From the IMG/VR virus record IMGVR_UViG_2529292906_000018: 36,198 nucleotides of DNA; one strand, 5' to 3'. Of this stretch, positions 4,870 to 36,198 are shown one piece after another. Under the pieces are notes generated by a model. That model saw only the letters and a list, made by a program, of their open reading frames with translations, was not told where the DNA came from and did no database searches. The translations under genes were made by a program, and so were the position numbers. Each line of letters starts with the position of its first letter. Position 1 is the stretch's first letter. The DNA is from a virus. Taxonomy: Duplodnaviria; Heunggongvirae; Uroviricota; Caudoviricetes.

Positions 4870-7185
4870 TTGCTTTACCTGCCGCAGCTCAACAAACACC
4901 AGATAAAGACGCTGGCAACCATGACGGCGGCGATGTTCAGCAGCACCTTCGAAAAACTCTGCGATGGCTTTGGCGCGACCGATGGCGAGCTGACCATGGA
5001 TGTAACCCTGAAGGCGTATCAGATGCTGGCCCGCATGGCGTTACACCTGCACGCCATGCCTCCACATTATGACGCACTGACAACAGACAAAGACCGGAGG
5101 AACGAACCGGACACGGAGCTGCTGCCGGGCGCAATCCTTCGCCTGACCTGTGCGGAATGGTGGAAACGCAAACTGTGGCTGTTACGTTGCGAGTGGAGAG
5201 AAGAACAACTCCGCGCCGCCTGTCTGGTTTCCAGAAAAACATCGCCCTATCTGAGCCAGGACGCGTTAAGCGAGTTTCGCGCACAGCGCGAGAAAACACG
5301 CGATTTCCTGAAAAGTTTCATGCTGGAAAACGAAGACGGGTTCACGATTGATCTCGAGACAGTGTATTACGCGGGAGTAAGTAACCCGGTTCACCGTAAG
5401 GCAGAAATGATGGCCACCATGAAGGGACTGGAACTTCTGGCCGAAGCCCGTGGCGACAGAGCGGTGTTTCTGACTGTCACCTGCCCGTCAAAATACCACG
5501 CAACAACGGAGAACGGTCATCCGAACCCCAAATGGAACGGGGCCACCATGCGCGACTCCAGCGATTACCTGGTTAACACGTTTTTTGCGGCGGTCCGCAA
5601 AAAACTGAACCGCGACGGCCTGCGCTGGTATGGCATCCGCACGGTGGAGCCTCACCATGACGGCACCGTGCACTGGCATATGATGGTCTTTGCTCATCCG
5701 GAAGAAATCGACAGCATCGTGACCATCACCCGCGATATTGCCATTCAGGAAGACCGCCACGAGCTGGGCAATGATATTACTCCGCGCTTTAAGGTGGAGT
5801 ACGTTGACGGCACCAAAGGCACGCCAACCAGCTACATCGCCACCTACATCGGAAAAAACCTGGACAGCCGCGCCGTGGATGGCATCGACCCGAAAACGGG
5901 CAAACCACGCGTTGACCACGAAACCGGAAAATCAATGGCCGAGAGCGTGGAGCGCGCCATCGGTTGGGCACGCCTTCACCGGGTCCGCCAGTTCCAGTTC
6001 TTTGGCATCCCCTCCCGTCAGGTGTGGCGTGAACTCCGCCGCCTTGCCAGCCAGATGGCACGCAACCCGGAAGGCCCGCAACGGCTGAAGGATGACGCAA
6101 TGGATGCGGTACTCGCTGCCGCTGATGCCGGATGTTTTGCCACCTACATAGAGAAACAGGGCGGCGTACTTGTTCCACGCAAAGACTACCTGATTCGCAC
6201 CGCCTACGACCTCGCCGATGAGCTGAACGATTACGGCGAACAGAGTGTACAGATTTACGGGATCTGGTCACCACTCATCGGGGAATCCTCCCGTGTGTGC
6301 ACGCACCCGGATAACTGGAAGCTGGTAAGACGTAAACCGGAACAGGAAGGCAGCGCCCACGAAAATGGTTTTGACCTTCAGGGCGGCCCTGCCGCCCCTT
6401 GGACTCGTGGCAATAACTGTCCCCGTGTACAGGAAACGGACAACAACGGGACAGAACAGCCGGAAGAACGGCCAGCACCGTGGCCGCAGCTCCCTGACAG
6501 CGTTGAAGTGAACGAATGGATGCGCTCACTAAAACGGCACGAACGCCGGGCGCTGATGCGTTCGCTTCGTGACAAACAGGCAAAAAACAGCAGTGATGAA
6601 ATGCAGAGCTGGACACAGAGCCGCAAACAGCAGCGGCCTTTGCCTGATAACCACGAATTACTCGCTAAAGAATGGCGGGAGTCTGCTGAATCTCTCGGCC
6701 TGCATATCGGTGAACAGCAGATGCAGCACCTGTTACGGGGCGGCAGTCTGTACGTTGACGGCAGCATCATTGCACCGCAGGGATTTGAAATTGTACGCAA
6801 ACCGGATACCCGCCCGGACAGCCGAATCACGCAGCTCTGGCAGCGCCTGAGCCGTAACCACGGCGTAAGCAGTACGGAGATCCGCCATAACCCGGTCGCC
6901 AGCTATCTGGAACAGCTGGGGACATTAGACCCCGAAGCCGCCGCACGCCTGGCATCCACACTTCAGCAAGACCAGAACACCATGAAAACACCCGTTACCG
7001 TGCTTTCTGACATGCTGCGCGCCATCCGCGACGCAGAGCACGCACAGAGAATCAGTGAAACCACTGAACGCGCCCGCCGCAAAGCAGACCTGCTGCGGGG
7101 TGGCCTGACCAGTGGAAACAAAAAACAGACAGAAACGGGATTCACAAATCCCGTAAATGAGCAAAAAACGCGCCGCGATATATGA
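4870..7185 (+). CDS. A: replication initiation endonuclease (P2 gpA family, rolling-circle initiator), main ORF
   Basis: 771 aa ORF with VEPHHDGTVHWHMMVF and YIATYIGKNLD motifs typical of gpA; listed TTG start at 4870 is probably not the true start (see N-terminal segment). Confidence 0.85.
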   Translation: MLYLPQLNKHQIKTLATMTAAMFSSTFEKLCDGFGATDGELTMDVTLKAYQMLARMALHLHAMPPHYDALTTDKDRRNEPDTELLPGAILRLTCAEWWKRKLWLLRCEWREEQLRAACLVSRKTSPYLSQDALSEFRAQREKTRDFLKSFMLENEDGFTIDLETVYYAGVSNPVHRKAEMMATMKGLELLAEARGDRAVFLTVTCPSKYHATTENGHPNPKWNGATMRDSSDYLVNTFFAAVRKKLNRDGLRWYGIRTVEPHHDGTVHWHMMVFAHPEEIDSIVTITRDIAIQEDRHELGNDITPRFKVEYVDGTKGTPTSYIATYIGKNLDSRAVDGIDPKTGKPRVDHETGKSMAESVERAIGWARLHRVRQFQFFGIPSRQVWRELRRLASQMARNPEGPQRLKDDAMDAVLAAADAGCFATYIEKQGGVLVPRKDYLIRTAYDLADELNDYGEQSVQIYGIWSPLIGESSRVCTHPDNWKLVRRKPEQEGSAHENGFDLQGGPAAPWTRGNNCPRVQETDNNGTEQPEERPAPWPQLPDSVEVNEWMRSLKRHERRALMRSLRDKQAKNSSDEMQSWTQSRKQQRPLPDNHELLAKEWRESAESLGLHIGEQQMQHLLRGGSLYVDGSIIAPQGFEIVRKPDTRPDSRITQLWQRLSRNHGVSSTEIRHNPVASYLEQLGTLDPEAAARLASTLQQDQNTMKTPVTVLSDMLRAIRDAEHAQRISETTERARRKADLLRGGLTSGNKKQTETGFTNPVNEQKTRRDI

Positions 7186-7230
7186 AGCGCGCATAAAACA
7201 GGCAAAAACGGGATTTCAGAATCCCGTAAA
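7134..7230. promoter_or_regulatory. pair of 20-bp palindromes at the A/parM junction (candidate parC-like centromere/operator)
   Basis: ACGGGATT-CACA-AATCCCGT at 7137-7156 and ACGGGATT-TCAG-AATCCCGT at 7209-7228, 72 bp apart, directly upstream of parM. Confidence 0.4.
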
Positions 7231-7261
7231 CGATTAATTAATCAACATAAGGAAAAGCGAC

Positions 7262-8221
7262 ATGAAAATTTGTATCGACGACGGCTCCACCAACATCAAG
7301 CTGGCATGGACTGAGAACGGCGAACGCCGCAACGCCATCAGCCCGAACAGCTTCAAGTCGGAATGGTCTGCGCCGTTCGGTGGCACGCAGCCCGCGAACT
7401 ACATGCTTGATGGCGTGCGCTATGGTTTTGATCCGGTCAGCGATCGCTTTGTCCAGACGACCGACACGCAATACCAGTACAGCGATGTGAATGTCATTGC
7501 CATTCATCACGCGCTGGTCAAATCAGGCATCACACCACAGGAGGTGGATGTGGTTGTCACCCTGCCACTGAGCGAGTATTTCGACACAAACGCACAGCCG
7601 GACATGGCCAACATCAACCGCAAAAAAGCGAACGTTATGCGCCCGGTGGAGTACCAGAACGGCGAGGCATTCACTATCCGTAACGTGCGGGTTATGCCTG
7701 AATCCATTCCGGCTGGCTTTAAGGCACTGGCTGACATGAGTCCGTTTGAATCCCTGCTGATTGTGGATTTGGGCGGAACCACGCTGGATGTGGCAAAGGT
7801 TCAGGGGCAACTGGCAGGTATCAGCCAGGTGTTTTGCGATCCACACGTAGGCGTTTCTCTGATGGCCGATGCCGTACTGTCAGTGATGGCCACTAACGGT
7901 ATGCGCACCAGTCACCACATCGCCAATACCATTATCGAACATCGCCATGATGAAGCCTGGCTGCGCCAGCACATCCACAATGACGCGCATTACGCCAGCC
8001 TGATGGCGGTTATTCGTGAAAAGGAAGAAACACTGAAACAACGCGTGATCCGCGCGCTGGCGGTTTTTTCGGGTTACGGGCGGGTGATGGTTGTCGGTGG
8101 AGGGGCGGAGATTGTGGCACCCGCTATCCGCGAAGCCTGCGGAGTTAATGCGACTTTCATCGCGGACGGGGTGCCACAGTTTGCTCTGGTTAATGGGCTG
8201 TACGCAATGGACAAGGAGTAA
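7262..8221 (+). CDS. parM: actin-like plasmid segregation ATPase ParM/StbA
   Basis: N-terminus MKICIDDGSTNIKLAW and YSDVNVIAIHHAL closely resemble R1 ParM (MLVFIDDGSTNIKLQW...YSDVNVVAVHHAL) as recalled; RBS AAGGA upstream. Confidence 0.85.
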   Translation: MKICIDDGSTNIKLAWTENGERRNAISPNSFKSEWSAPFGGTQPANYMLDGVRYGFDPVSDRFVQTTDTQYQYSDVNVIAIHHALVKSGITPQEVDVVVTLPLSEYFDTNAQPDMANINRKKANVMRPVEYQNGEAFTIRNVRVMPESIPAGFKALADMSPFESLLIVDLGGTTLDVAKVQGQLAGISQVFCDPHVGVSLMADAVLSVMATNGMRTSHHIANTIIEHRHDEAWLRQHIHNDAHYASLMAVIREKEETLKQRVIRALAVFSGYGRVMVVGGGAEIVAPAIREACGVNATFIADGVPQFALVNGLYAMDKE

Positions 8222-9527: not shown

Positions 9528-10574
9528 TCAGGATGTGGGCTGGGTGTCCAGCAGTGCATAAGGGTTAAAGCGGATCACCTCTTCGCCAAGCCAGTCATTG
9601 ATGTGCTTCATGGCCTCCATGACGGGCATCAGCTCGTTAATTGCGTAAACCCGCGCGGCCTTCTCCACATCACCAAACGCACTTTTTTCACCCGGCATCG
9701 CCCCCATCAGTTGCGGCGGGACACGGTGCGCAGCCAGCACATCATCACGGGATGCCGCCTTAACATTCATGAACTCATCCTTTGCGGTGATCTGCTGGAA
9801 CGGCAAAATTTGCCCCCCCTCTTTGCCCCCGTTGGGCGCATGAATGAGCACGTTTTTAAACGCACCACCACCACGTGCACCCTGTAACGTTTCTTTCAGG
9901 GAGTCCATGCTTTCGCGGTTTACCTGCGCTGCACCGATGTAGATGATGCACCCGGCGTGGGATCCGTTGTCGTAATACAGTTTTCTGAACATGTCCGCCG
10001 AATGAGACAGGCTGGCCGAGAGTAATGCGCCGAGATATTCCGGCATGCCGTAGATTTCCTGGTTAATATCCGGATTCATCAGGTGACACACTTTGCCGGG
10101 GCGAAACTGGAACGCGTCCTTGCCATCCTGCACATACCACCATGATTCAAGATCGCTTCCGCGTCGCATGTATTTCGCCAGGGCGTGCCGTAATTTAAGC
10201 GGTTCGCCGAGCATATTGCTCCGAAGCTCAAGGAATGCGTTACCGAACACAAACCAGTCCAGCGCCAGCGCCGAGAAATCCTGCCGGGAAAGCAGCGGGT
10301 GCGGGATGTAGCAACCGAGTAATACATTGCGCTTAAAGTAAAGCGCAGACTGATGCCAGGACGTTTGCCGGGCAGCTCTTGCCAGACCGTACCAGTCCAC
10401 CGGGGTTTCATACCACCGCCCGTTATCAGCACAGTACATATTATCCAGCAGGTCATGCCCGGTCAGGCGATAAGGCCCATCAAATGTGAATGCACTGAGC
10501 GACGATTCATTCCTGAGCGCATCAGCGAGATCAATGCGTGAACTCATGCGCACTTTTTTATTTTTTCTGCTCAT
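9528..10574 (-). CDS. Q: portal protein (P2 gpQ-like)
   Basis: 348 aa ORF at the P2 Q position beside P, leftward; GGAG SD; start overlaps P stop. Confidence 0.85.
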   Translation of the reverse strand: MSRKNKKVRMSSRIDLADALRNESSLSAFTFDGPYRLTGHDLLDNMYCADNGRWYETPVDWYGLARAARQTSWHQSALYFKRNVLLGCYIPHPLLSRQDFSALALDWFVFGNAFLELRSNMLGEPLKLRHALAKYMRRGSDLESWWYVQDGKDAFQFRPGKVCHLMNPDINQEIYGMPEYLGALLSASLSHSADMFRKLYYDNGSHAGCIIYIGAAQVNRESMDSLKETLQGARGGGAFKNVLIHAPNGGKEGGQILPFQQITAKDEFMNVKAASRDDVLAAHRVPPQLMGAMPGEKSAFGDVEKAARVYAINELMPVMEAMKHINDWLGEEVIRFNPYALLDTQPTS

Positions 10575-11767
10575 CAGAACTCCATAACCGTGAAACGCTC
10601 GTTTTCTCCTTCGCCGCCAATTGGTTCGTTAATGACAGCAAGCATGGTTGCCCACGCAAGGTCGCCGTGGCTGATCCCCCTCGCGCGGTCCGTTTCGTAA
10701 GTGATAAAGCCGCCCGGTGTTTTCACCTTACGCACGGCGTTAAAGGCTGCGACCAGTTCGCGTTCGGCGCGATCGTATTCCCACCGCCCGGCGCGCATTA
10801 TTTGCAGCATTTTCAGTACCAGCGACCGTTTTGATGACAGCGTGAAGGTGTACGGAATAGCAGCAGGGAAAAACCGTTTCACTATCTGATAAACAGCCTC
10901 CCCGTTCCCACCTGTCACATCAATGCCGATGTGTTCCACGTTGTAGCGACACGTGAACTCTTCAATGACTCTGGCCTGTTCTTCAAACTCCAGCCCCTGA
11001 ACGCGTCGCGTCTCCACTGTTCGAAAACGGCCACCAGGAACAGCCGGAGGGACCACCACGGACACCGCGCCGCTGTCGCCGTTGCCACTGCTGCCGTTTG
11101 CGTCATACCCAATCCATACCGGGCGATTCCCCATCGGGCGGGGAGCAAAAGGTTTCCAGTCTTTCCAGTCGTCGTATCCGTCAACACCGCAGCCAATCAG
11201 GATATTCAGGTTAAATGCCGATTCCCCTTCGCGGACAAACTCACACATATAGAGATTGAGGAACTCGTCTTCGGTGTTTTCATCACGAATTTCGTCGATA
11301 TCGGTGTGTTTCCAGCCGTGATTAACCACATCTTCCAGCGTGACAATTTGCCGCCACGTCCGGTCAGGGCAGATAAGCCCGTTATGCAGCGTTTTCCAGT
11401 CCACAGAAAAACGCTGGCGTTTATGCGTGGCCTTTTTCTCGTTCCAGCGGTCGCCGTTCCAGTAGGCGTATGCCTCGTGCGTTTCGGTGGATGGCGTGGA
11501 GAAGTAGGTGCGCCGCAGTCCGCTGAGGGTTGCCATAGCGCCAGCCACCTTGCGCAGTTCAGCAAAGCGGCTGACCCAGAAAAATTCATCAAAATAAAAA
11601 TTGCCAGTATAGGACTGTGCCGACGCAGCAGAAGTGCCGAGGAAATGCAGCTCTGCGCCGTTGGAGAGGATGATTTTATCACCCCCTTTCAGCTCCACAT
11701 CAACTTCAGCCGCGGCCTTCTGAATAATGCTTTTAAACTGGAACGCCTGACGACGCGACGCAGACAA
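10574..11767 (-). CDS. P: terminase ATPase (large) subunit, P2 gpP-like, C-terminal ORF
   Basis: 397 aa ORF; continues the 11689..12324 ORF after a -1 shift at T6 (plus A6 at 11766-11771); reading T7 would give ...RNQIFLSASRRQAFQF... Confidence 0.8.
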   Translation of the reverse strand: MSASRRQAFQFKSIIQKAAAEVDVELKGGDKIILSNGAELHFLGTSAASAQSYTGNFYFDEFFWVSRFAELRKVAGAMATLSGLRRTYFSTPSTETHEAYAYWNGDRWNEKKATHKRQRFSVDWKTLHNGLICPDRTWRQIVTLEDVVNHGWKHTDIDEIRDENTEDEFLNLYMCEFVREGESAFNLNILIGCGVDGYDDWKDWKPFAPRPMGNRPVWIGYDANGSSGNGDSGAVSVVVPPAVPGGRFRTVETRRVQGLEFEEQARVIEEFTCRYNVEHIGIDVTGGNGEAVYQIVKRFFPAAIPYTFTLSSKRSLVLKMLQIMRAGRWEYDRAERELVAAFNAVRKVKTPGGFITYETDRARGISHGDLAWATMLAVINEPIGGEGENERFTVMEF

Positions 11768-12324
11768 AAAATCTGGTTACGCTGGTAAGGTTGCGCCACA
11801 TCGTCACGCAGCGCCATCAACAGTGCTTCCTGTGCAAAATACCAGGTCGCCCCAATCTGTCGGGATTTCAGGATCATCCTGTTACGTATCCCGGCTTCCC
11901 TGCAAAGGGTCAGGGCGTCAAACCAGCCCCGCTGATGCCACTCCAGCCTGCTGATGATTTTTTCCCGCAGTGCGGCAATCTGTTCCGGCGTGAAATGATT
12001 TTTAAGTTTTTTCGCCCGGCTTTTCTTTCCTGTGGCCGTCGCATCCGGCTGGTCATTATGCAGTTTTTTAAGCTGCCGGGTCAGCAGGTCTATTTCCTTG
12101 AAGTCACCACCTGTTTTATTCTGTTTTTCAGTAAGCTGGATGAGGCGCGCATCGATGGACTGCGTGACACGCTGCACGGGTGGCGTTTCATCCCACTGAT
12201 CGCGTTTTTTCCACGCATAAATCGTGTTCGGGTTTATTCCCATCAGACGTGATATTTCTGCGGGCGGATAACCCTGCCAGTAAAGTTGTCGCGCACGCTG
12301 GCGCACAAAAGCGTCCTGAATCAT
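11689..12324 (-). CDS. P: terminase ATPase (large) subunit, P2 gpP-like, N-terminal ORF
   Basis: 211 aa ORF starting MIQDAFVRQRARQLYWQGYPPAEISRLMGINPNTIYAW (N-terminal HTH typical of P2-type terminase); GGGGGAG SD. Confidence 0.8.
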   Translation of the reverse strand: MIQDAFVRQRARQLYWQGYPPAEISRLMGINPNTIYAWKKRDQWDETPPVQRVTQSIDARLIQLTEKQNKTGGDFKEIDLLTRQLKKLHNDQPDATATGKKSRAKKLKNHFTPEQIAALREKIISRLEWHQRGWFDALTLCREAGIRNRMILKSRQIGATWYFAQEALLMALRDDVAQPYQRNQIFCLRRVVRRSSLKALFRRPRLKLMWS

Positions 12325-13338: not shown

Positions 13339-14391
13339 ATGAATCTGGTGATGTCAGATATTACCCGCAACAAGCTGGGTTGCTATATGGCGCAGCAGGC
13401 GTCGCTTAACAACATCCCGGTATCTGCACTGGTATCGCGATTTACCGTGGAACCCTCGGTGCAACAGCGTTTTGAAAACGCAGTAAAGGAGAGCACTGAA
13501 TTTACAAAAAAAATTAACGTGTTCGGTGTGACCGACCAGAAAGGCGAAAAAATCCTCCTGGACACCACCGGGCCGATTGCGCGCACGAATACCAGTTATG
13601 ACGGCACAAAACGCCGTAACCCGAATAACGTGGTTGATCTGAAAAACCGCAAATACCAGTGCGAACAGGTGAACTACGACACGTTTATTTCGTATCCGCA
13701 GCTTGATGCCTGGGCGGCACACCCTGATTTTCAGTCCCGCGTCAGCACACAGATTGCCCGGCAGGTGGCGCTTGACCGCATCATGATCGGTTTCAACGGC
13801 ACGTCTCACGCAGATGAGTCCAACTTCAGCACCAACAAGCTGCTTCAGGACGTTAACGTGGGATGGCTGGAGCACATCAGAACCGACGCCAGCGAGCGCG
13901 TAATGAATGACGTGACGCTGACCTCCCGCAACATGGACAACACCGTGGCGCACGCGGGTAAGTATGCGAACGCTGATGCACTGGTACAGGACGCGCGCTC
14001 ATCCCTGCTGGATGAATGGCACAAGGAAGCTGACGACCTCGTGGTGATTATGGGGCGCAACCTGTTTAACTCGCTGCGTCTGCCCGTGCTGAACAGCATC
14101 AGCGGCCAGAATCCCAATGCGGAATTACTTGCCGGACAGCTCATCCTGTCATCGCGCGCCATTGGCGGACTGGATGTATTCCTTGCGCCGTTCTTCCCGG
14201 ATTCAACGATGCTGATCACCTCGTTCAACAACCTGTCGATTTACTGGCAGAAAGGAACAATGCGTCGCCTGATGAAAGACGAGCCGGAATACAACCGCAT
14301 CGCCACCTACCAGTCCATCAATGACGCTTATGTCGTTGAAGACTATGGCAAGTGCGCGATGGTCACTGGCCTGAAGTTCGCCGACAGCTAA
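13339..14391 (+). CDS. N: major capsid protein (P2 gpN-like)
   Basis: 350 aa ORF with AAGGAG SD; FTVEPSV...GEKI...YVVEDYG pattern conserved with P2 N as recalled. Confidence 0.9.
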   Translation: MNLVMSDITRNKLGCYMAQQASLNNIPVSALVSRFTVEPSVQQRFENAVKESTEFTKKINVFGVTDQKGEKILLDTTGPIARTNTSYDGTKRRNPNNVVDLKNRKYQCEQVNYDTFISYPQLDAWAAHPDFQSRVSTQIARQVALDRIMIGFNGTSHADESNFSTNKLLQDVNVGWLEHIRTDASERVMNDVTLTSRNMDNTVAHAGKYANADALVQDARSSLLDEWHKEADDLVVIMGRNLFNSLRLPVLNSISGQNPNAELLAGQLILSSRAIGGLDVFLAPFFPDSTMLITSFNNLSIYWQKGTMRRLMKDEPEYNRIATYQSINDAYVVEDYGKCAMVTGLKFADS

Positions 14392-15237: not shown

Positions 15238-15339
15238 CGACTGACCCCGTCAGCGGGCGGCGTGCGCGGTGTTCCGGTTTGACTCCGTGACCGTTTACAC
15301 CGCGCACCCACCGCCCGATTTTTTTCAGGAGTGAACCCC

Positions 15340-24612: not shown

Positions 24613-24626
24613 AGAGGATGTTTTTT

Positions 24627-25226
24627 ATGCAAATTGGCTATATTCGTGTGTCAACAAATGACCAGAACACGGATTTACAACGCAATGCACTGAACTGCGC
24701 AGGATGTGAACTGATTTTTGAAGATAAAATCAGCGGAACGAAATCAGCCAGACCGGGATTGAAAAAACTGCTCAGAACGCTATCAGAAGGAGATACGCTG
24801 GTTGTCTGGAAGCTGGACAGACTGGGCAGAAGTATGAAACACCTGATCACGCTTATTGAGGAATTGCGGGAAAAAGGTGTTAATTTCCGTAGTCTGACGG
24901 ACAGCATTGACACATCAACACCCATGGGGCGTTTCTTTTTTCACGTCATGGGGGCTTTAGCCGAAATGGAACGTGAATTAATTGTAGAACGTACACTGGC
25001 CGGGCTGGCAGCAGCACGCGCACAAGGACGCATTGGCGGACGTCGCCCGAAGTTGACAAAAGAACAACACGAGCAAATAGCGAGGCTGATTAAAAACGGT
25101 CATGACAGGAAACAACTGGCGATCATTTACGACATCGGCATATCGACGATTTATCGTTATCACCCTGTAGGCGATATACAGGCTGAAGAAACAACCAGGC
25201 AGACTCAGGAAAATGAAAACCGCTAA
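24627..25226 (+). CDS. serine DNA invertase (Hin/Gin/Cin/Pin family)
   Basis: MQIGYIRVSTNDQNTDLQRNAL...GDTLVVWKLDRLGRSMKHL...FRSLTDSIDTSTPMGRFFFHVMGALAEMERELI is near-identical in pattern to Gin/Hin as recalled; ATG 24627 within ORF 24618..25226. Confidence 0.9.
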   Translation: MQIGYIRVSTNDQNTDLQRNALNCAGCELIFEDKISGTKSARPGLKKLLRTLSEGDTLVVWKLDRLGRSMKHLITLIEELREKGVNFRSLTDSIDTSTPMGRFFFHVMGALAEMERELIVERTLAGLAAARAQGRIGGRRPKLTKEQHEQIARLIKNGHDRKQLAIIYDIGISTIYRYHPVGDIQAEETTRQTQENENR

Positions 25227-31736: not shown

Positions 31737-32104
31737 AACGCCGCAAACCGCCAAAACCCAAAAAGGAGAAAAGCAGCAGTCGGGAAGGCGACTATATGGA
31801 AGGTGCGGAAGGCAACGTGTTTGTGTTACGCAAGACTTATCAGAACGAGCAGGCAGCAAGACGCGCAGCGGCGGCAAAGTGGCAGCAGCTACAACGCGGA
31901 GCCGCATCATTCTCCATCACGCTGGCGCGTGGTCGTGCAGAACTCTATCCCGAAATGCATGGCACAGTGACAGGCTTTAAAAGCGAGATTGATTATCAGG
32001 ACTGGATTATTGCAAAAGCCGAGCACACCATTGATAACAGCGGCTTTACCACGCAGCTTGAACTTGAAGCAAAAATCCCGGAATGGATAGCAGAAACAGA
32101 ATAA
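31733..32104 (+). CDS. D: tail protein D, C-terminal segment in -1 frame
   Basis: EGDYMEGAEGNV...AAAKWQQLQRGAASFSITLARGRAELYPE...GFKSEIDYQDW...SGFTTQLELE matches the gpD C-terminal domain as recalled; frame is open back to 31709; joins the N-terminal ORF if the A5 run at 31716-31720 or 31722-31726 is A6. Confidence 0.7.
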   Translation: MKRRKPPKPKKEKSSSREGDYMEGAEGNVFVLRKTYQNEQAARRAAAAKWQQLQRGAASFSITLARGRAELYPEMHGTVTGFKSEIDYQDWIIAKAEHTIDNSGFTTQLELEAKIPEWIAETE

Positions 32105-32256
32105 ATCTCTTAAAAATATTATTTTTGAGATGTGCTTCTACACTGACAGTAAGAACAAAAGATAATGTATCAGCCCACTAGATGTCAGAGGTTGGGGCAT
32201 CAACCAGATGCTAACAATAATACGGATGTTTTTCCCACATGACAGAGGAAGTCAAG

Positions 32257-32262
32257 TATAAT
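32257..32262 (+). promoter_or_regulatory. candidate -10 element (TATAAT) for the island operon
   Basis: tataat at 32257-32262, about 90 bp upstream of ATG 32353; no good -35 found. Confidence 0.25.
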
Positions 32263-32352
32263 CTTCACAGTCCATCCCGTCCAAGGGAATATGACTCAAT
32301 AGTAAAAGTTCCAGTTTAGTTAGTAGACCCACACTTTATAGAAGAGTAATTC

Positions 32353-33300
32353 ATGATTGGACAATTTTTAAGTGCAACAGAGATTTTAGCAAAGAACTAT
32401 GTTCGTAATAAAATGGTTAAAAATCCATTTTATTCGAATTTAAAATGGAATTTTATTGAAAAAAACATCATAAGATTAACATCCTCACCGGTTAAATCAG
32501 TACTTTGCATATCAGCTTTTTCATTTGTACTACTTTATGTTGGATATTTAAACGAATTATTTATAAAAAATAATCTTTTACATTATTTCCCGTTTAGGCA
32601 TTCATTAACCGAATGGCAAACAACCATTTTAAGTGGCCAATTGACAATTATTGGTATTGTATACCCCCTTGTTATAGGTTTAGTAAGTGTCTTATTCCAA
32701 AAAAAGGCAGATAGAAAAATAGCCCAAACTGCTTATCAGCGTTACTCAGGATTCATGCTTGCTGGACTCAGCGGGCTTTTCTTATCAGGATTTATACTTC
32801 TCAGTGTACTAATTAAAACTGTCTTTGGAAGTTATCTTTATGGTATAGCTTGTCTAATCAGCATATTATGGCTTTTGATAAACATAGTTCTTTCTATTTG
32901 GTTCTTTATCGTGAGTCTTGAAATTCTTGATGATGTAAAACGGCAAATAATTATAAAGCGATACATTGCCTTCGAAATAGTAATGCCCCATATTTGTAAC
33001 AAAATCTCAGCCAAGCTTAGGTTATACCCTATCTATCAAAAACATAACTATTCAAATTTAGAAATCAAGCAAGCCGATTACAAAGGAGAATACATATCTG
33101 TGGCTAGCGGTTATTCTAAGGAAGATGAGTTAAGTTTATATCACCGTCCTTTTCAACTTACTCTTAATCTTATTAATTGCCAACTAAAAAGAAGAATCAT
33201 TTTGCGTCATTTGTCATTGGTGATAATCGTGCAAAAGAAACAGAATCCACGGGTAAGATACTTTTTAGCGTTAAAAATATCAAACCAGACAGCTTATTAA
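32353..33300 (+). CDS. hypothetical polytopic membrane protein (about 4 TM helices), AT-rich island gene 1
   Basis: 315 aa ORF; hydrophobic stretches VLCISAFSFVLLYVGYL, LTIIGIVYPLVIGLVSVLF, FMLAGLSGLFLSGFILLSVLI, LYGIACLISILWLLINIVLSIWFFIVSL; very AT-rich codon usage. Confidence 0.55.
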   Translation: MIGQFLSATEILAKNYVRNKMVKNPFYSNLKWNFIEKNIIRLTSSPVKSVLCISAFSFVLLYVGYLNELFIKNNLLHYFPFRHSLTEWQTTILSGQLTIIGIVYPLVIGLVSVLFQKKADRKIAQTAYQRYSGFMLAGLSGLFLSGFILLSVLIKTVFGSYLYGIACLISILWLLINIVLSIWFFIVSLEILDDVKRQIIIKRYIAFEIVMPHICNKISAKLRLYPIYQKHNYSNLEIKQADYKGEYISVASGYSKEDELSLYHRPFQLTLNLINCQLKRRIILRHLSLVIIVQKKQNPRVRYFLALKISNQTAY

Positions 33301-35471
33301 TAAAAATACTTAAGCAATGTTTTTATAGGGCTCCGATTAAAGGAGGAGATTTTTCCGTAAGTCTTACAATGCAGGCTATAACAGCAGATACGTATATGTA
33401 TCTGCGGGATTCTGATCTCATTAGTTTTGACGATGCTATCTCTGCATTAATTAATAACTTTAATAATCTCTGCGATTTGTATTTTTTTCAAGATGATAAT
33501 ACCAACAATAACTTCTTACTGATCACTACAGAATTATTTGAACGGAGTTTTCAATATGAGTTTTCAGATGAAGTTTATAAAATATCAAATAATTCCATGG
33601 ATAAAATTAATCTTTCTGAAAGATTTTTTGAATTATGTCTTTGGAGCGGAGTGCGTATTATCAATAATAGAAAACATCTTATCAGCAATGAACTTTGTAT
33701 CTATATGGGAATTACTCGTTCACAATGGTCAATATTAACAGAATGGTTCCGAAACAACCAATCACTCTTAAATGCCTCGCTTCGTTCACGTTATAATCGT
33801 ATATTAAGAACCTATACCACTGTTTGGGAGCAATATCAAGAAAGCATAAACTTTCGTTTCTGCAATACAGAGAATTCAGATTTATTTGAATTATTTTGCA
33901 AAACGCAACTACAAGAACTTCCATCGATGATTATTGATGCAACACAGACTCGCGATCCTTCTACTATTGATACAGCCGTCGATCTTATTAACCGATGGCA
34001 GCACTCAATGAATATTGACAGCCATTCGGTAGAAAAATACAGTTACAAAGGCCAGCTTTTTAACCCGGGTTTTTTCATATCCAAAAAACTAAACTTCAAT
34101 TCAGACAGAGAGTGGTTCAATATTGCCATCATAAATGCGTTGACTGACATGCGTATATGCACATGTCTTTATCTGACATCAAGAATCAATACTTCTGACA
34201 AACTAATGACACATTACATTAAACTTATTTTAGAGGGTAAACTTATTGACCAAACCGGTGGATATGAAACTCCCACTGAAGAAATTGATAATGCAAGCCA
34301 ACTAATCAAGATATTAATTAGAATCTGCCTGTGGACATGGTCTGAAAATATGGAGCATAATGGGTGGATGAATAGTTTAGCAAGGCGTTTACGTGACTAT
34401 GATAAAACAGACATGGTGATGGGCAGAGTTTACAGTAATGTTTTTGACTGTGGATTTATTGATATGGAACAATCATGGGTTCAGCTATTATTAATTTTTT
34501 CTAACAAGAACGATAGCGTATCAAAAGAAATAAAAGAAGCAATAGAAAACAACTATATAACATATCGTGAGAAGCAACGACTCATTGGAGTATTATCAAA
34601 AATTTGTAACTCCATCGAATACACTAAAATCAAGCTGACTTTAACATTGGACGATCTCCAAACAAAAAAAGAAAACTTAAGAAAGTTGCTTCAAGAGCAT
34701 ATTAACATGCTAAAGAAAGATCTTGATATGAGACTTCAGGATGCTGCCATAGATGTACATCGACTAGATAGCACTGCACGTAAAACATCAGAACATCTTC
34801 GTAAACGCATCAAGAAAACGCTCCCTCTTTCACTTTTCAAATCTATTGATTTTAAGCAGGCTAGCGATTGTTTCACAAAACATAAGATATCTATTAAGAT
34901 AGATAAAGAACCGTATGCCGAAGGAATAGAATCCATCCCTTATATCAATGAAGGTGATATTCAAGCAGACTTAATTCTCAAGGACATCCAGAGAATAATA
35001 CTTTCAAATTTATTTAGCACTGGCTGTTCGCAACATACCGTAATAGAAGATTTCAATATGTTGATTGATCACATAAAATCATCTGCTGACTTGGCTGGCA
35101 AACTGGTTCTTGTGATGAGTAAAGAGATCTTTCAGCAATATAATCGTATGCTTTTCGATAATCCCAACCTCAGAGAACTAATGAGAAAAAATGATGATGG
35201 CTCTATGAACATAACTACTGAATCCGGTACCTGTAAGGTTTACTTCTTACCATTTGTTAATCAACCATTTTCTCTTGTGGTAAAGGATAACTACTTCACT
35301 AAATTAATTATTAGAGAATATGATAATAATAAGTTAGTAAATGTCACTTCAGAGAATATCAAAAGTGACTCAGATAAATTCAAGCTAACTCTTAACTATG
35401 AGTTGAATATAGTATTTGAAGGAAACGCTGATTTAAAAATAGCTCACTCGCAAAGAGTGACATCAGAATAA
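33177..35471 (+). CDS. hypothetical large protein (about 760 aa), AT-rich island gene 2; probably continuous with gene 1
   Basis: Long ORF overlapping gene 1 by 124 nt in the -1 frame; listed start is TTG with no SD; reading the A5 run at 33186-33190 as A6 fuses the two into about 1040 aa; no recognisable catalytic motif. Confidence 0.55.
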   Translation: MPTKKKNHFASFVIGDNRAKETESTGKILFSVKNIKPDSLLIKILKQCFYRAPIKGGDFSVSLTMQAITADTYMYLRDSDLISFDDAISALINNFNNLCDLYFFQDDNTNNNFLLITTELFERSFQYEFSDEVYKISNNSMDKINLSERFFELCLWSGVRIINNRKHLISNELCIYMGITRSQWSILTEWFRNNQSLLNASLRSRYNRILRTYTTVWEQYQESINFRFCNTENSDLFELFCKTQLQELPSMIIDATQTRDPSTIDTAVDLINRWQHSMNIDSHSVEKYSYKGQLFNPGFFISKKLNFNSDREWFNIAIINALTDMRICTCLYLTSRINTSDKLMTHYIKLILEGKLIDQTGGYETPTEEIDNASQLIKILIRICLWTWSENMEHNGWMNSLARRLRDYDKTDMVMGRVYSNVFDCGFIDMEQSWVQLLLIFSNKNDSVSKEIKEAIENNYITYREKQRLIGVLSKICNSIEYTKIKLTLTLDDLQTKKENLRKLLQEHINMLKKDLDMRLQDAAIDVHRLDSTARKTSEHLRKRIKKTLPLSLFKSIDFKQASDCFTKHKISIKIDKEPYAEGIESIPYINEGDIQADLILKDIQRIILSNLFSTGCSQHTVIEDFNMLIDHIKSSADLAGKLVLVMSKEIFQQYNRMLFDNPNLRELMRKNDDGSMNITTESGTCKVYFLPFVNQPFSLVVKDNYFTKLIIREYDNNKLVNVTSENIKSDSDKFKLTLNYELNIVFEGNADLKIAHSQRVTSE

Positions 35472-35479
35472 TATCTTTG

Positions 35480-35510
35480 ACGGCGCTCCTTAGAGTGCCG
35501 TTCGTTTATT
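35480..35510 (+). terminator. putative terminator after the island ORF
   Basis: ACGGCGCTC-ctta-GAGTGCCGT hairpin (one mismatch) followed by tcgTTTaTT. Confidence 0.45.
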
Positions 35511-35606
35511 AACTAATGCTAAAAATCATTATATAGAGAAAGTCATGTTTAAATCTTAGAGAATACAACCTAGAATAGTGCAAGCACTACAATAAGAGAG
35601 GTCGCT

Positions 35607-35867
35607 ATGTTCCGTTGTCCGCTTTGTGGCGCATCTGCCCGTATCCGCACCAGTCGTCCGGAAAATGATTCAAACACCGTGAGACAAAAGTATTATCAGT
35701 GTAACAATCTAGAATGCGGCGTATGTTTCTCAACACTGGAAGCCTTCCACAAATTCACTTCAAAGCACGCCTCCCCCATTCACTCATCAGAGGGCATCCC
35801 GTGGCATGAACTGCCAACTTCACACAGAGGAAACAATCAGATGAGTTTGCCCTTACCTCAGAATTAA
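35607..35867 (+). CDS. ogr: late gene transcriptional activator Ogr (zinc-finger)
   Basis: MFRCPLCGASARIRTSR...YYQCNNLECGVCF matches P2 Ogr (MFHCPLCQHAAHARTSR...YHQCQNVNCSATF) as recalled, C-x2-C...C-x4-C; AGAGAGG SD. Confidence 0.85.
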   Translation: MFRCPLCGASARIRTSRPENDSNTVRQKYYQCNNLECGVCFSTLEAFHKFTSKHASPIHSSEGIPWHELPTSHRGNNQMSLPLPQN

Positions 35868-36057
35868 CGAGCAGAATTGCCGGAGTAACAAAAAAGCGAT
35901 AGATTACGCGCGGGTGCCTTTCGGCTGATGGTCGGAGGGAATACCTGAAGGCCAGATGTGGAAAGGCCCCGGAAAACATTTTTGTTTAACCGAGGCCCTA
36001 ACCGTCTACCCTAAGCAAGTGATAGGTTAGCGCCTCCCCGAAAAAGGAGCAAGCGCT

Positions 36058-36198
36058 ATGTCGCAAAAATCGCTTACGGCCATCACGTTCTGCGTGACGG
36101 CAATCCTCATCATCTGGATGCTGCACGGTTCGCTGTGCGAAATACGGATGAGCTTCTGGGGAGCGGAGTTTGCGGCGTTCTTACAGTGTAAGCAGTAA
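36058..36198 (+). CDS. Hok/Gef-family type I toxin-like small membrane peptide (46 aa)
   Basis: MSQKSLTAITFCVTAILIIWMLHGSLCEIR...AAFLQCKQ has the Hok-family hydrophobic helix plus SLCEIR and AAFL motifs; AAGGAG SD; complete with TAA at window end. Confidence 0.65.
   Translation: MSQKSLTAITFCVTAILIIWMLHGSLCEIRMSFWGAEFAAFLQCKQ

What the first reader, a model, noticed from the sequence alone, without database searches (positions are those of the whole stretch)
32105..35606. AT-rich accessory island between tail gene D and ogr: 4-TM membrane ORF plus about 760-aa unknown ORF (possibly one ~1040-aa membrane-anchored protein), a candidate novel exclusion/defence module
In canonical P2 order, D and ogr are adjacent. 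Here about 3.4 kb is inserted between them, visibly far more AT-rich than the flanking structural genes, with its own terminator hairpin (35480-35510). The first ORF has about four strongly hydrophobic helices; the second shows no Walker A, nuclease, TIR or other motif I can recognise. The two ORFs overlap by 124 nt in a -1 relationship around an A5 run (33186-33190), the same pattern seen at four other homopolymer sites in this window, so they are probably one protein. Prophage accessory islands of this kind frequently carry anti-phage or superinfection-exclusion genes; a membrane-anchored effector would fit an abortive-infection mechanism.
Basis: partly seen in the sequence, partly recalled or inferred. 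Interest (0 to 1): 0.85.

Follow-up and report, generated by a model that had tools for sequence, protein, structure and literature searches.

The report
Membrane protein with capsid-fold domain
A prophage carries, as swappable cargo between two of its core genes, one large uncharacterised membrane protein whose cytoplasmic end is predicted to fold like a phage capsid protein; it is most likely an unrecognised anti-phage protein, but no function has been tested.

Summary
A 3.5-kb stretch at 30-36% GC (flanks about 54%) sits between tail gene D and ogr; related P88-like phages have only 42 bp there. The two ORFs are one gene. Five complete E. coli genomes carry the same island at 99% identity, with A6 where the window has A5, and annotate a single 1039-aa protein. 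Terminase and gene D in the window have the same kind of single-A loss, so a sequencing artefact is likely.

The family has about 500 clusters at 50% identity, mainly in Gammaproteobacteria. It is always a lone gene on prophages, plasmids, ICEs and islands, often beside restriction or toxin genes.

Best reading (0.45, inferred): a single-protein anti-phage module with a membrane effector and a capsid-like sensing or oligomerising domain. I found no published description.

The parts
32105..35606 (.). AT-rich cargo cassette between gene D (stop at 32104) and ogr (start at 35607)
   Evidence: GC 0.30-0.36 against about 0.54 in the flanks. The same cassette is at the same site in 5 complete E. coli genomes. 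The junction is only 42 bp in P88-like phages.
32105..32352 (+). Upstream non-coding region with a sigma-70-like site (32137-32166, TCTACA-18-GATAAT). It contains the diverged left cassette end (about 32105-32150).
   Evidence: Consensus scan, 9 of 12 positions, weak. End alignment.
32353..35471 (+). One gene for a 1039-aa protein. In this window it reads as ORF1 32353-33300 plus ORF2 33177-35471.
   Evidence: Adding one A to the run gives a 1039-aa product that differs from WP_264716223 at 4 residues and from WP_049143931 at 17. Intact relatives annotate a single CDS.
33186..33190 (+). A5 run. It is A6 in the two intact relatives aligned base by base (CP128578, CP134716), and all five relatives span 3503 bp against 3502 in the window. 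This is the frameshift site.
   Evidence: Base-by-base alignment. The same type of single-A loss occurs in gene D (31721) and the terminase (11765).
32491..32922 (+). Four-helix transmembrane domain (residues about 47-190). It is the most conserved part of the family (Q96, P105, G138, S140, W173, N177).
   Evidence: Hydropathy and positive-inside rule. Identity between subfamilies is 50% here against 15-25% elsewhere. Invariant columns.
33049..33347 (+). Small alpha/beta domain (residues about 233-332), fold unassigned. It is absent from some distant members.
   Evidence: AF2 secondary structure. P0217 and P0239 lack it.
33348..34646 (+). All-helical domain (residues about 333-765). Conserved polar residues are W492/E493, D544, W549, N595, D599 and an R692/Y694 motif in a flexible loop.
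   Evidence: AF2 model, pLDDT mostly 80-94. Only generic helical-repeat Foldseek hits. Conservation.
34647..34826 (+). Two long helices (residues about 766-825) that precede the capsid-fold domain
   Evidence: AF2 models.
34827..35468 (+). C-terminal HK97-fold (capsid/encapsulin-like) domain, residues about 826-1039
35479..35512 (+). Terminator-like hairpin after the stop codon
   Evidence: 10-pair stem, 6 G-C pairs, T-rich tail.
35545..35585 (.). Diverged right cassette end, an inverted copy of the left-end motif shared by other cargo cassettes at this junction

Best explanation
The island is a single-gene cargo cassette (a 'moron') in a variable slot of a P88-like (P2-family) prophage. It encodes one 1039-aa inner-membrane protein.

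The N-terminal four-helix membrane domain is the conserved working part. The roughly 850 cytoplasmic residues are a small alpha/beta domain, a helical domain and a C-terminal HK97-fold domain. They are the variable part.

Proposed mechanism, inferred rather than shown: the protein is a stand-alone anti-phage (exclusion or abortive-infection) module expressed from the lysogen. The cytoplasmic part recognises a product of an infecting phage, most plausibly something in capsid assembly, because the C-terminal domain has the fold that capsid proteins use to form pentamers and hexamers. Recognition would oligomerise or re-arrange the protein. The clustered membrane domains would then permeabilise or depolarise the inner membrane. 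Alternatively, the tethered capsid-like domain would trap assembly intermediates at the membrane.

The copy in this window is read as two ORFs because one A is missing from an A6 run, most likely a sequencing error.
For: Shown.
- One gene.
- The junction is a cargo slot that is empty in 720 of the 1202 complete E. coli genomes with related D/ogr sequence and holds other single genes in others. A preprint notes a third P2 hotspot downstream of a tail gene (10.1101/2024.10.15.618418).
- Atypical composition, promoter-like site and terminator-like hairpin.
- Four membrane helices with both termini inside.
- HK97 fold of the C-terminal domain by two programs and three libraries.
- A faint recurrent sequence echo: SU10_MCP is the only Pfam family hit by more than one member, 3 of 18, best E 0.02.
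- A family of about 505 clusters at 50% identity with the architecture kept end to end.
- Patchy spread over Gammaproteobacteria and on 379 plasmids.
- Always a lone gene with no conserved partner.
- Neighbours include type I R-M, type II methylases, PDC-S02, RES, CAP12-PCTIR TIR, GmrSD, Mrr-like, KAP NTPase, DUF3800, an AAA_15/21 ATPase and hok.
- The membrane domain keeps 50% identity between subfamilies, against 15-18% for the capsid-fold region. This is the conserved-effector, variable-sensor pattern.

From established knowledge. Prophage morons and hotspot cargo are often defence genes (PMC9122126). Membrane domains in defence systems are generally taken to be suicide effectors (same paper). 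Several defence systems sense the major capsid protein, including Avs7/8/10, CapRel and Lit (PMC12803255).
Against: - No experiment exists.
- There is no match to any PADLOC-DB v2 model and no homologue in 50,697 phage records.
- The neighbourhood evidence has no background control.
- The capsid-fold domain shares only 5-12% identity with any capsid protein. It has no significant similarity to the prophage's own gpN, so co-assembly with foreign capsid proteins is far from assured.
- The domain could simply be an oligomerisation scaffold.
- A strongly conserved membrane domain would equally fit a transport, signalling or MGE-maintenance role.
- The copy in the window is frameshifted and might really be dead.
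Confidence: 0.45

Rival explanations
1. It is MGE cargo with a role other than defence against phages. Examples would be a membrane complex used in competition between plasmids or ICEs (entry or maintenance), an addiction-like module, or a host-fitness factor. In this reading the HK97-fold domain only drives self-assembly into rings or shells at the membrane, like a membrane-anchored encapsulin.
Against: Encapsulins are free proteins of about 260-300 aa with an adjacent cargo gene, whereas here there is no conserved neighbour. Neighbours are repeatedly restriction, toxin or defence genes rather than transfer or partition genes. The slot in P88-like phages also holds DUF3800, a family seen beside defence genes.
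Confidence: 0.27
2. The copy in this window is a true pseudogene in a decaying prophage. Whatever the family does, this locus does nothing.
For: The frameshift at 33186-33190 splits the gene. Gene D and the terminase are also broken. The 90%-identity cluster contains many short fragments, some from complete genomes.
Against: All three breaks are losses of a single A from A6/A7 runs. That is the typical signature of homopolymer undercalling, and two of the breaks hit essential phage genes. Apart from the indel the gene differs from intact alleles at only 4-17 residues and has no stop codons.
Confidence: 0.2
3. It is an MFS transporter, as RefSeq and GenBank label it.
For: Database names only.
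Against: It has four membrane helices, not twelve. No MFS or any other Pfam or NCBIfam model matches, even at E<=1. About 80% of the protein is cytoplasmic and non-membrane.
Confidence: 0.02

Closest known systems
HK97-fold major capsid proteins and encapsulins (Duplodnaviria MCP fold)
   Different: Sequence identity is 5-12% and no capsid Pfam family is matched significantly. The domain is the tail of a 1039-aa membrane-anchored protein, not a free shell subunit. It is not next to portal, scaffold or protease genes or an encapsulin cargo gene.
SaPIbov5 Ccm, a satellite-encoded capsid-protein homologue that redirects helper capsid assembly
   Different: Ccm is a soluble protein of about 260 aa, clearly related in sequence to its helper's capsid protein, and sits in a packaging module. 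The protein here is membrane-anchored, has no detectable sequence relation to any capsid protein, and occurs on plasmids and ICEs that package nothing.
Defence systems that sense the phage major capsid protein (Avs7/8/10, CapRel, Lit) and membrane-effector abortive-infection systems (lambda RexAB with 4-TM RexB; TM effectors of CBASS, Pycsar and retrons)
   Same: The proposed logic is the same: a cytoplasmic sensor tied to capsid assembly plus a membrane effector, carried by a prophage or MGE as a compact module (PMC12803255 and PMC9122126).
   Different: There is no sequence or profile similarity to any of them. There is no NTPase, protease, toxin or cyclase domain. The sensor and effector roles here are inferred, not shown.
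Other cargo at the D-ogr junction of P88-like prophages (DUF3800 protein, YecA-family protein, hypothetical proteins of 340, 221 and 132 aa)
   Same: They occupy the same insertion point and have the same conserved cassette ends and single-gene layout.
   Different: The proteins are unrelated. This is by far the largest cargo seen at the site and the rarest, in 5 of 5426 complete E. coli genomes.

Membership tests
MFS transporter (current database label) | Twelve (or fourteen) transmembrane helices in two six-helix bundles | tested here: not met
   Only four hydrophobic helices, all within residues 47-190.
MFS transporter (current database label) | Match to the MFS_1 / Sugar_tr / MFS clan profiles | tested here: not met
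   No Pfam or NCBIfam family at E<=1.
HK97-fold superfamily (capsid proteins and encapsulins) | Three-dimensional fold: spine helix, A-domain sheet with two helices, P-domain long strands and an E-loop hairpin | tested here: met
HK97-fold superfamily (capsid proteins and encapsulins) | Detectable sequence membership in a capsid or encapsulin family | tested here: not met
   No PDB sequence hit at E<=10. Only a faint SU10_MCP echo, best E 0.02. hhalign against the prophage's own gpN gave probability 0.6%.
HK97-fold superfamily (capsid proteins and encapsulins) | Self-assembly into pentamers or hexamers and closed shells | not testable with these tools
   No multimer prediction or experiment was available.
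Encapsulin system | Free shell protein with a co-encoded cargo enzyme bearing a targeting peptide | tested here: not met
   The domain is fused behind about 825 residues that include four membrane helices. No conserved neighbour across 16 loci.
Known anti-phage defence families (PADLOC-DB v2.0.0) | Profile match to a component of a described or candidate system | tested here: not met
   Zero families at E<=1. Systems described after 2023 are not covered.
Prophage moron / hotspot cargo | Present or absent at a fixed site among otherwise collinear relatives, with alternative cargo at the same site | tested here: met
Prophage moron / hotspot cargo | Deviant base composition and own transcription signals | tested here: met
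   GC 0.30-0.36 against 0.54. The promoter-like and terminator-like sites are consensus matches only.
Abortive-infection membrane effector (RexB-like and similar) | Phage-triggered loss of membrane potential and protection at population level | not testable with these tools
   This needs infection assays.

The most novel reading that the evidence does not exclude
Mobile elements of Gammaproteobacteria carry a domesticated capsid-fold domain, tethered to the inner membrane through a conserved four-helix effector. It acts as an immune sensor or decoy for phage capsid assembly. That would be the first bacterial defence built on the HK97 fold itself, a functional analogue of the Gag-derived restriction factors of mammals such as Fv1.
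Probability: 0.22. Interest if true: 0.9.

Novelty: new variant of a known kind. Interest (0 to 1): 0.7.

Why it matters
If the protein is a defence, it adds a large, widespread, completely unannotated single-gene family. The family has about 500 clusters at 50% identity and sits on hundreds of enterobacterial plasmids, including ColBM/IncF-type plasmids of E. coli, Klebsiella and Salmonella.

It would also be the first case I could find of the HK97 capsid fold recruited into a membrane-anchored, non-structural protein. That makes an open question directly testable: can bacteria use a copy of the virus's own building block to detect or poison capsid assembly?

Even if it is not a defence, an HK97-fold domain outside capsids, encapsulins and gene-transfer agents is of interest for the evolution of that fold.

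Two practical points follow. The 'MFS transporter' label now propagated in RefSeq is wrong. The D-ogr junction of P88-like prophages is a cargo slot worth mining.

Tried and rejected
Sequence-based annotation.
- Pfam, NCBIfam, PHROGs and PADLOC scans of the full protein gave nothing usable.
- Profile searches of PDB sequences with the full-length and C-terminal alignments gave no hits at E<=10.
- tblastn against 50,697 phage records gave no match.
- BLASTP and hhalign of the C-terminal domain against the prophage's own capsid protein gpN were not significant. A recent duplication of gpN is therefore rejected.

Architecture and partners.
- Foldseek of the whole model gave only generic helical-repeat matches for the middle domain. 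Its fold stays unassigned.
- I looked for alternative architectures, meaning the same membrane domain with other C-termini or the cytoplasmic part with other effectors. The top 150 of 505 profile hits are all the same architecture or fragments of it. A word-indexed search with the membrane-domain profile returned only fragments.
- I looked for a conserved partner gene across 16 loci and found none.

Technical failures.
- The Pfam scan of variant members failed on a size limit.
- The AFDB50 fold library was not available.
- The genome scan with the broad alignment A3 failed for lack of a conserved stretch and was repeated with A1.

Literature. Seven full-text searches and several papers on P2 hotspots, DefensePredictor and Avs found no description of this family or of an HK97-fold defence protein. 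Brenes and Laub 2025 on prophage defences is not in the library and could not be checked.

Rfam found only the neighbouring sok RNA.
Full report
1. THE OBSERVATION

The region 32105-35606 is strongly AT-rich. GC is 0.30-0.36, against 0.52-0.58 in the tail genes on its left and about 0.50 in ogr on its right. Gene D ends at 32104 and ogr begins at 35607.

In P88-like phages (Xuanwuvirus, Peduoviridae), the closest relatives in the phage collection, the D stop and the ogr start are 42 bp apart. A probe made of the last 400 nt of D joined to ogr found related sequence in 1202 of 5426 complete E. coli genomes. In 720 of them the two genes are adjacent. The insertion is therefore real and the site is usually empty.

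2. ONE GENE, NOT TWO

ORF1 (32353-33300) and ORF2 (33177-35471) overlap by 124 nt in a -1 relation.

Five complete E. coli genomes contain the whole island at 99.1-99.8% identity, at the same place, in a P2-family prophage next to hok-ihfA-pheT. They annotate a single 3120-nt CDS. Base-by-base alignment with two of them (CP128578 and CP134716) shows one length difference, A6 in the relatives against A5 at 33186-33190 in the window. Restoring the A gives a 1039-aa protein that differs from WP_264716223 at 4 residues and from WP_049143931 at 17.

Compared with a close relative, the window also has isolated single-A losses in an A6 run inside gene D (31721) and in an A7 run inside the terminase gene (11765). 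Three identical events, two of them in essential phage genes, point to homopolymer undercalling rather than decay. Only resequencing can settle it.

3. WHAT THE PROTEIN IS

No Pfam, NCBIfam or PADLOC model matches, even at E<=1. PHROGs gives one insignificant short hit. The label 'MFS transporter' in RefSeq and GenBank has no support.

Hydropathy shows four membrane helices, all within residues 47-190. Basic residues cluster in the N-terminus, in the loop between helices 2 and 3, and after helix 4. Both ends, and therefore the remaining ~850 residues, face the cytoplasm.

An AlphaFold2 model built on 33 family members has mean pLDDT 80 and pTM 0.64. It shows:
- the membrane bundle;
- a small alpha/beta domain (about 233-332);
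- a helical domain of about 430 residues (333-765);
- two long helices (766-825);
- a C-terminal alpha/beta domain (826-1039).

Foldseek of the whole model against the PDB gave phage major capsid proteins as the best matches (PhiTE, S6, phi29, EcCI2, Che8, HK97, T4). Otherwise it gave only generic helical repeats.

I then modelled the last 280 residues alone (pLDDT 89, pTM 0.81).
- Foldseek against predicted viral structures gave 143 hits at E<=1e-3. Of the 50 best listed, every one that carries a name is a capsid or head protein, and the best E was 3e-8.

Sequence identity to these proteins is 5-12%. Profile searches of PDB sequences find nothing. The prophage's own capsid protein gpN (13339-14391, Pfam Phage_cap_P2) is not significantly similar. 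The only Pfam family hit by more than one family member at loose thresholds is a capsid family, SU10_MCP (3 of 18, best E 0.02).

The C-terminal domain is therefore an old, highly diverged HK97-fold domain and not a recent copy of a capsid gene. This rests on predicted structure.

4. THE FAMILY AND WHERE IT LIVES

A word-indexed search found 184 relatives. The near-identical cluster has 692 sequences from E. coli and Shigella. Relatives at 50-71% identity occur in Erwinia and Pantoea. A large 1069-aa subfamily at about 27% identity is widespread in Enterobacteriaceae.

An exhaustive profile search of 1.84 billion representatives found 505 clusters at E<=1e-3 and 150 at E<=1e-30. Nearly all listed hits are 1030-1150 aa long and match from end to end. 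A genome scan placed members in Enterobacterales, Vibrionales, Alteromonadales, Oceanospirillales, Psychrobacter and one Desulforhopalus. 379 of 72,556 plasmid records carry one, mostly conjugative plasmids of E. coli, Klebsiella and Enterobacter. No record among 50,697 deposited phage genomes has one.

In every context examined the gene stands alone, and all-against-all comparison of neighbours across 16 loci found no conserved partner. The elements are varied:
- this prophage;
- ColBM/IncF-type plasmids;
- a Pantoea plasmid next to rep and par genes;
- an ICE;
- integrase-flanked islands.

Neighbours repeatedly include restriction, toxin and defence-type genes:
- an AAA_15/21 ATPase, RES, and PIN/MazE;
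- HNH, FRG and DUF3800;
- a CAP12-PCTIR TIR protein;
- hok and GmrSD;
- RES and an Mrr-like nuclease;
- a KAP NTPase;
- type I R-M in three loci, type II methylases and PADLOC candidate PDC-S02 in three loci.

This is suggestive, but I had no matched background to turn it into a statistic. Most family members have lower GC than their flanks.

5. THE SLOT

Roughly a third of the related prophages sampled have D and ogr separated. All four that I opened carry a single unrelated gene there:
- a 340-aa hypothetical protein on the opposite strand (ST131);
- a DUF3800 protein (O104:H4);
- a YecA-family protein;
- a 221-aa hypothetical protein (E2348/69).

Two deposited phages carry the 340-aa gene or a 132-aa gene at the same site. 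[quoted passage not shown] The main published hotspots lie elsewhere (PMC9122126; 10.64898/2026.02.27.708500). So the slot is known in outline, but I found no description of this cargo.

6. HOW IT MOST LIKELY WORKS

What is shown:
- a lone, horizontally mobile gene in a cargo slot;
- a four-helix membrane domain that keeps 50% identity between subfamilies, while the rest keeps 15-25% and the capsid-fold region only 15-18%;
- conserved polar residues inside the membrane helices (Q96, N177, S140) and a nearly invariant R692/Y694 motif in a flexible loop.

What is inferred: a conserved effector joined to a fast-evolving recognition part is the usual design of single-protein defence systems. Membrane domains in such systems are generally thought to kill or arrest the cell (PMC9122126). 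The HK97 fold is the unit that forms capsomers.

I put 0.45 on 'anti-phage module' and about 0.2 on the capsid-mimic version specifically.

7. RIVALS

- A non-defence MGE function, with the HK97 domain serving only as an oligomerisation scaffold (0.27).
- A true pseudogene at this locus (0.2). This is independent of what the family does.
- An MFS transporter (0.02), contradicted.

8. NOVELTY

The kind, a prophage cargo gene encoding a membrane-anchored candidate defence, is familiar. The content is not. I found no family, model or paper that describes it, and no other case of the HK97 fold fused to a membrane domain. I rate it a new variant of a known kind. It would become categorically new if capsid-fold-based sensing or decoy action were demonstrated.

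Noticed in passing
window 32105-32150 and 35545-35585; L017-L020, L014, L015 junctions: Cargo cassettes at the D-ogr junction carry different genes but share conserved ends. There is a 9-bp direct repeat of the empty-site sequence (CAACTTAGA). Just inside it lie imperfect inverted repeats of about 26-35 nt, left TGTATTAGCTCA..AACTGACA and right TGTCAGTT..TGAGCTA.TACA. This resembles a MITE or transposon, or a scaffold for cassette exchange. The window's ends are diverged copies.
   Followed up: partly
window 31721 (gene D) and 11765 (terminase, ORFs 10574-11767 and 11689-12324): Single-A losses in A6 and A7 runs split two essential phage genes, the same kind of event as in the finding. A T7-versus-T6 difference lies at 15319, apparently between genes. 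This suggests homopolymer errors throughout the assembly.
   Followed up: partly
window 7262-8221: A ParM plasmid-segregation ATPase (Pfam StbA_N plus ParM C-terminal domain) sits in the classic gpA-portal hotspot. Rousset et al. report such partition systems in about a quarter of P2-like phages.
   Followed up: no
window 35912-36198: A hok/sok-type module lies at the prophage end. A sok antitoxin RNA matches at 35912-36071 (46 bits, below the gathering score of 59, E 3e-8). It overlaps a Hok/Gef ORF that starts at 36058 and reaches its stop codon at the window's last base.
   Followed up: no
window 24618-25226: A resolvase/invertase gene (Pfam Resolvase plus HTH_7) lies beside the tail-fibre region, the position where P2-like phages often carry a fibre-switching invertase.
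   Followed up: no
window 33109, 33179, 33231, 33432: At four positions within about 330 bp around the frameshift, the window has G where the closest relative CP128578 has A. The second relative, CP134716, also has A at 33109 and 33179 but shares the window's G at 33231 and 33432. All four change an amino acid (G253S, C276Y, A294T, D361N). This could be real variation or a systematic base-calling bias.
   Followed up: no
family alignments A1/A3 (window residues 690-696 at about 34419-34439; residue 852 at about 34905): A nearly invariant motif, G-R-(I/V)-Y-S, sits in the only long low-confidence loop of the model (686-699). An invariant Lys (residue 852) follows directly after the second strand of the hairpin (841-850) that I read as E-loop-like in the capsid-fold domain, near where HK97 carries its cross-linking Lys169 (that comparison is from memory). 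No role is known for either.
   Followed up: no
L003-L007 (IncF/ColBM-type plasmids), about 4944-7612: On these plasmids the 1069-aa paralogue lies next to a divergently oriented trio: a 518-aa AAA_15/AAA_21 ATPase and two small ORFs of 196 aa and 81-85 aa. A RES-domain gene lies downstream. This looks like a small plasmid defence island and was not classified.
   Followed up: no
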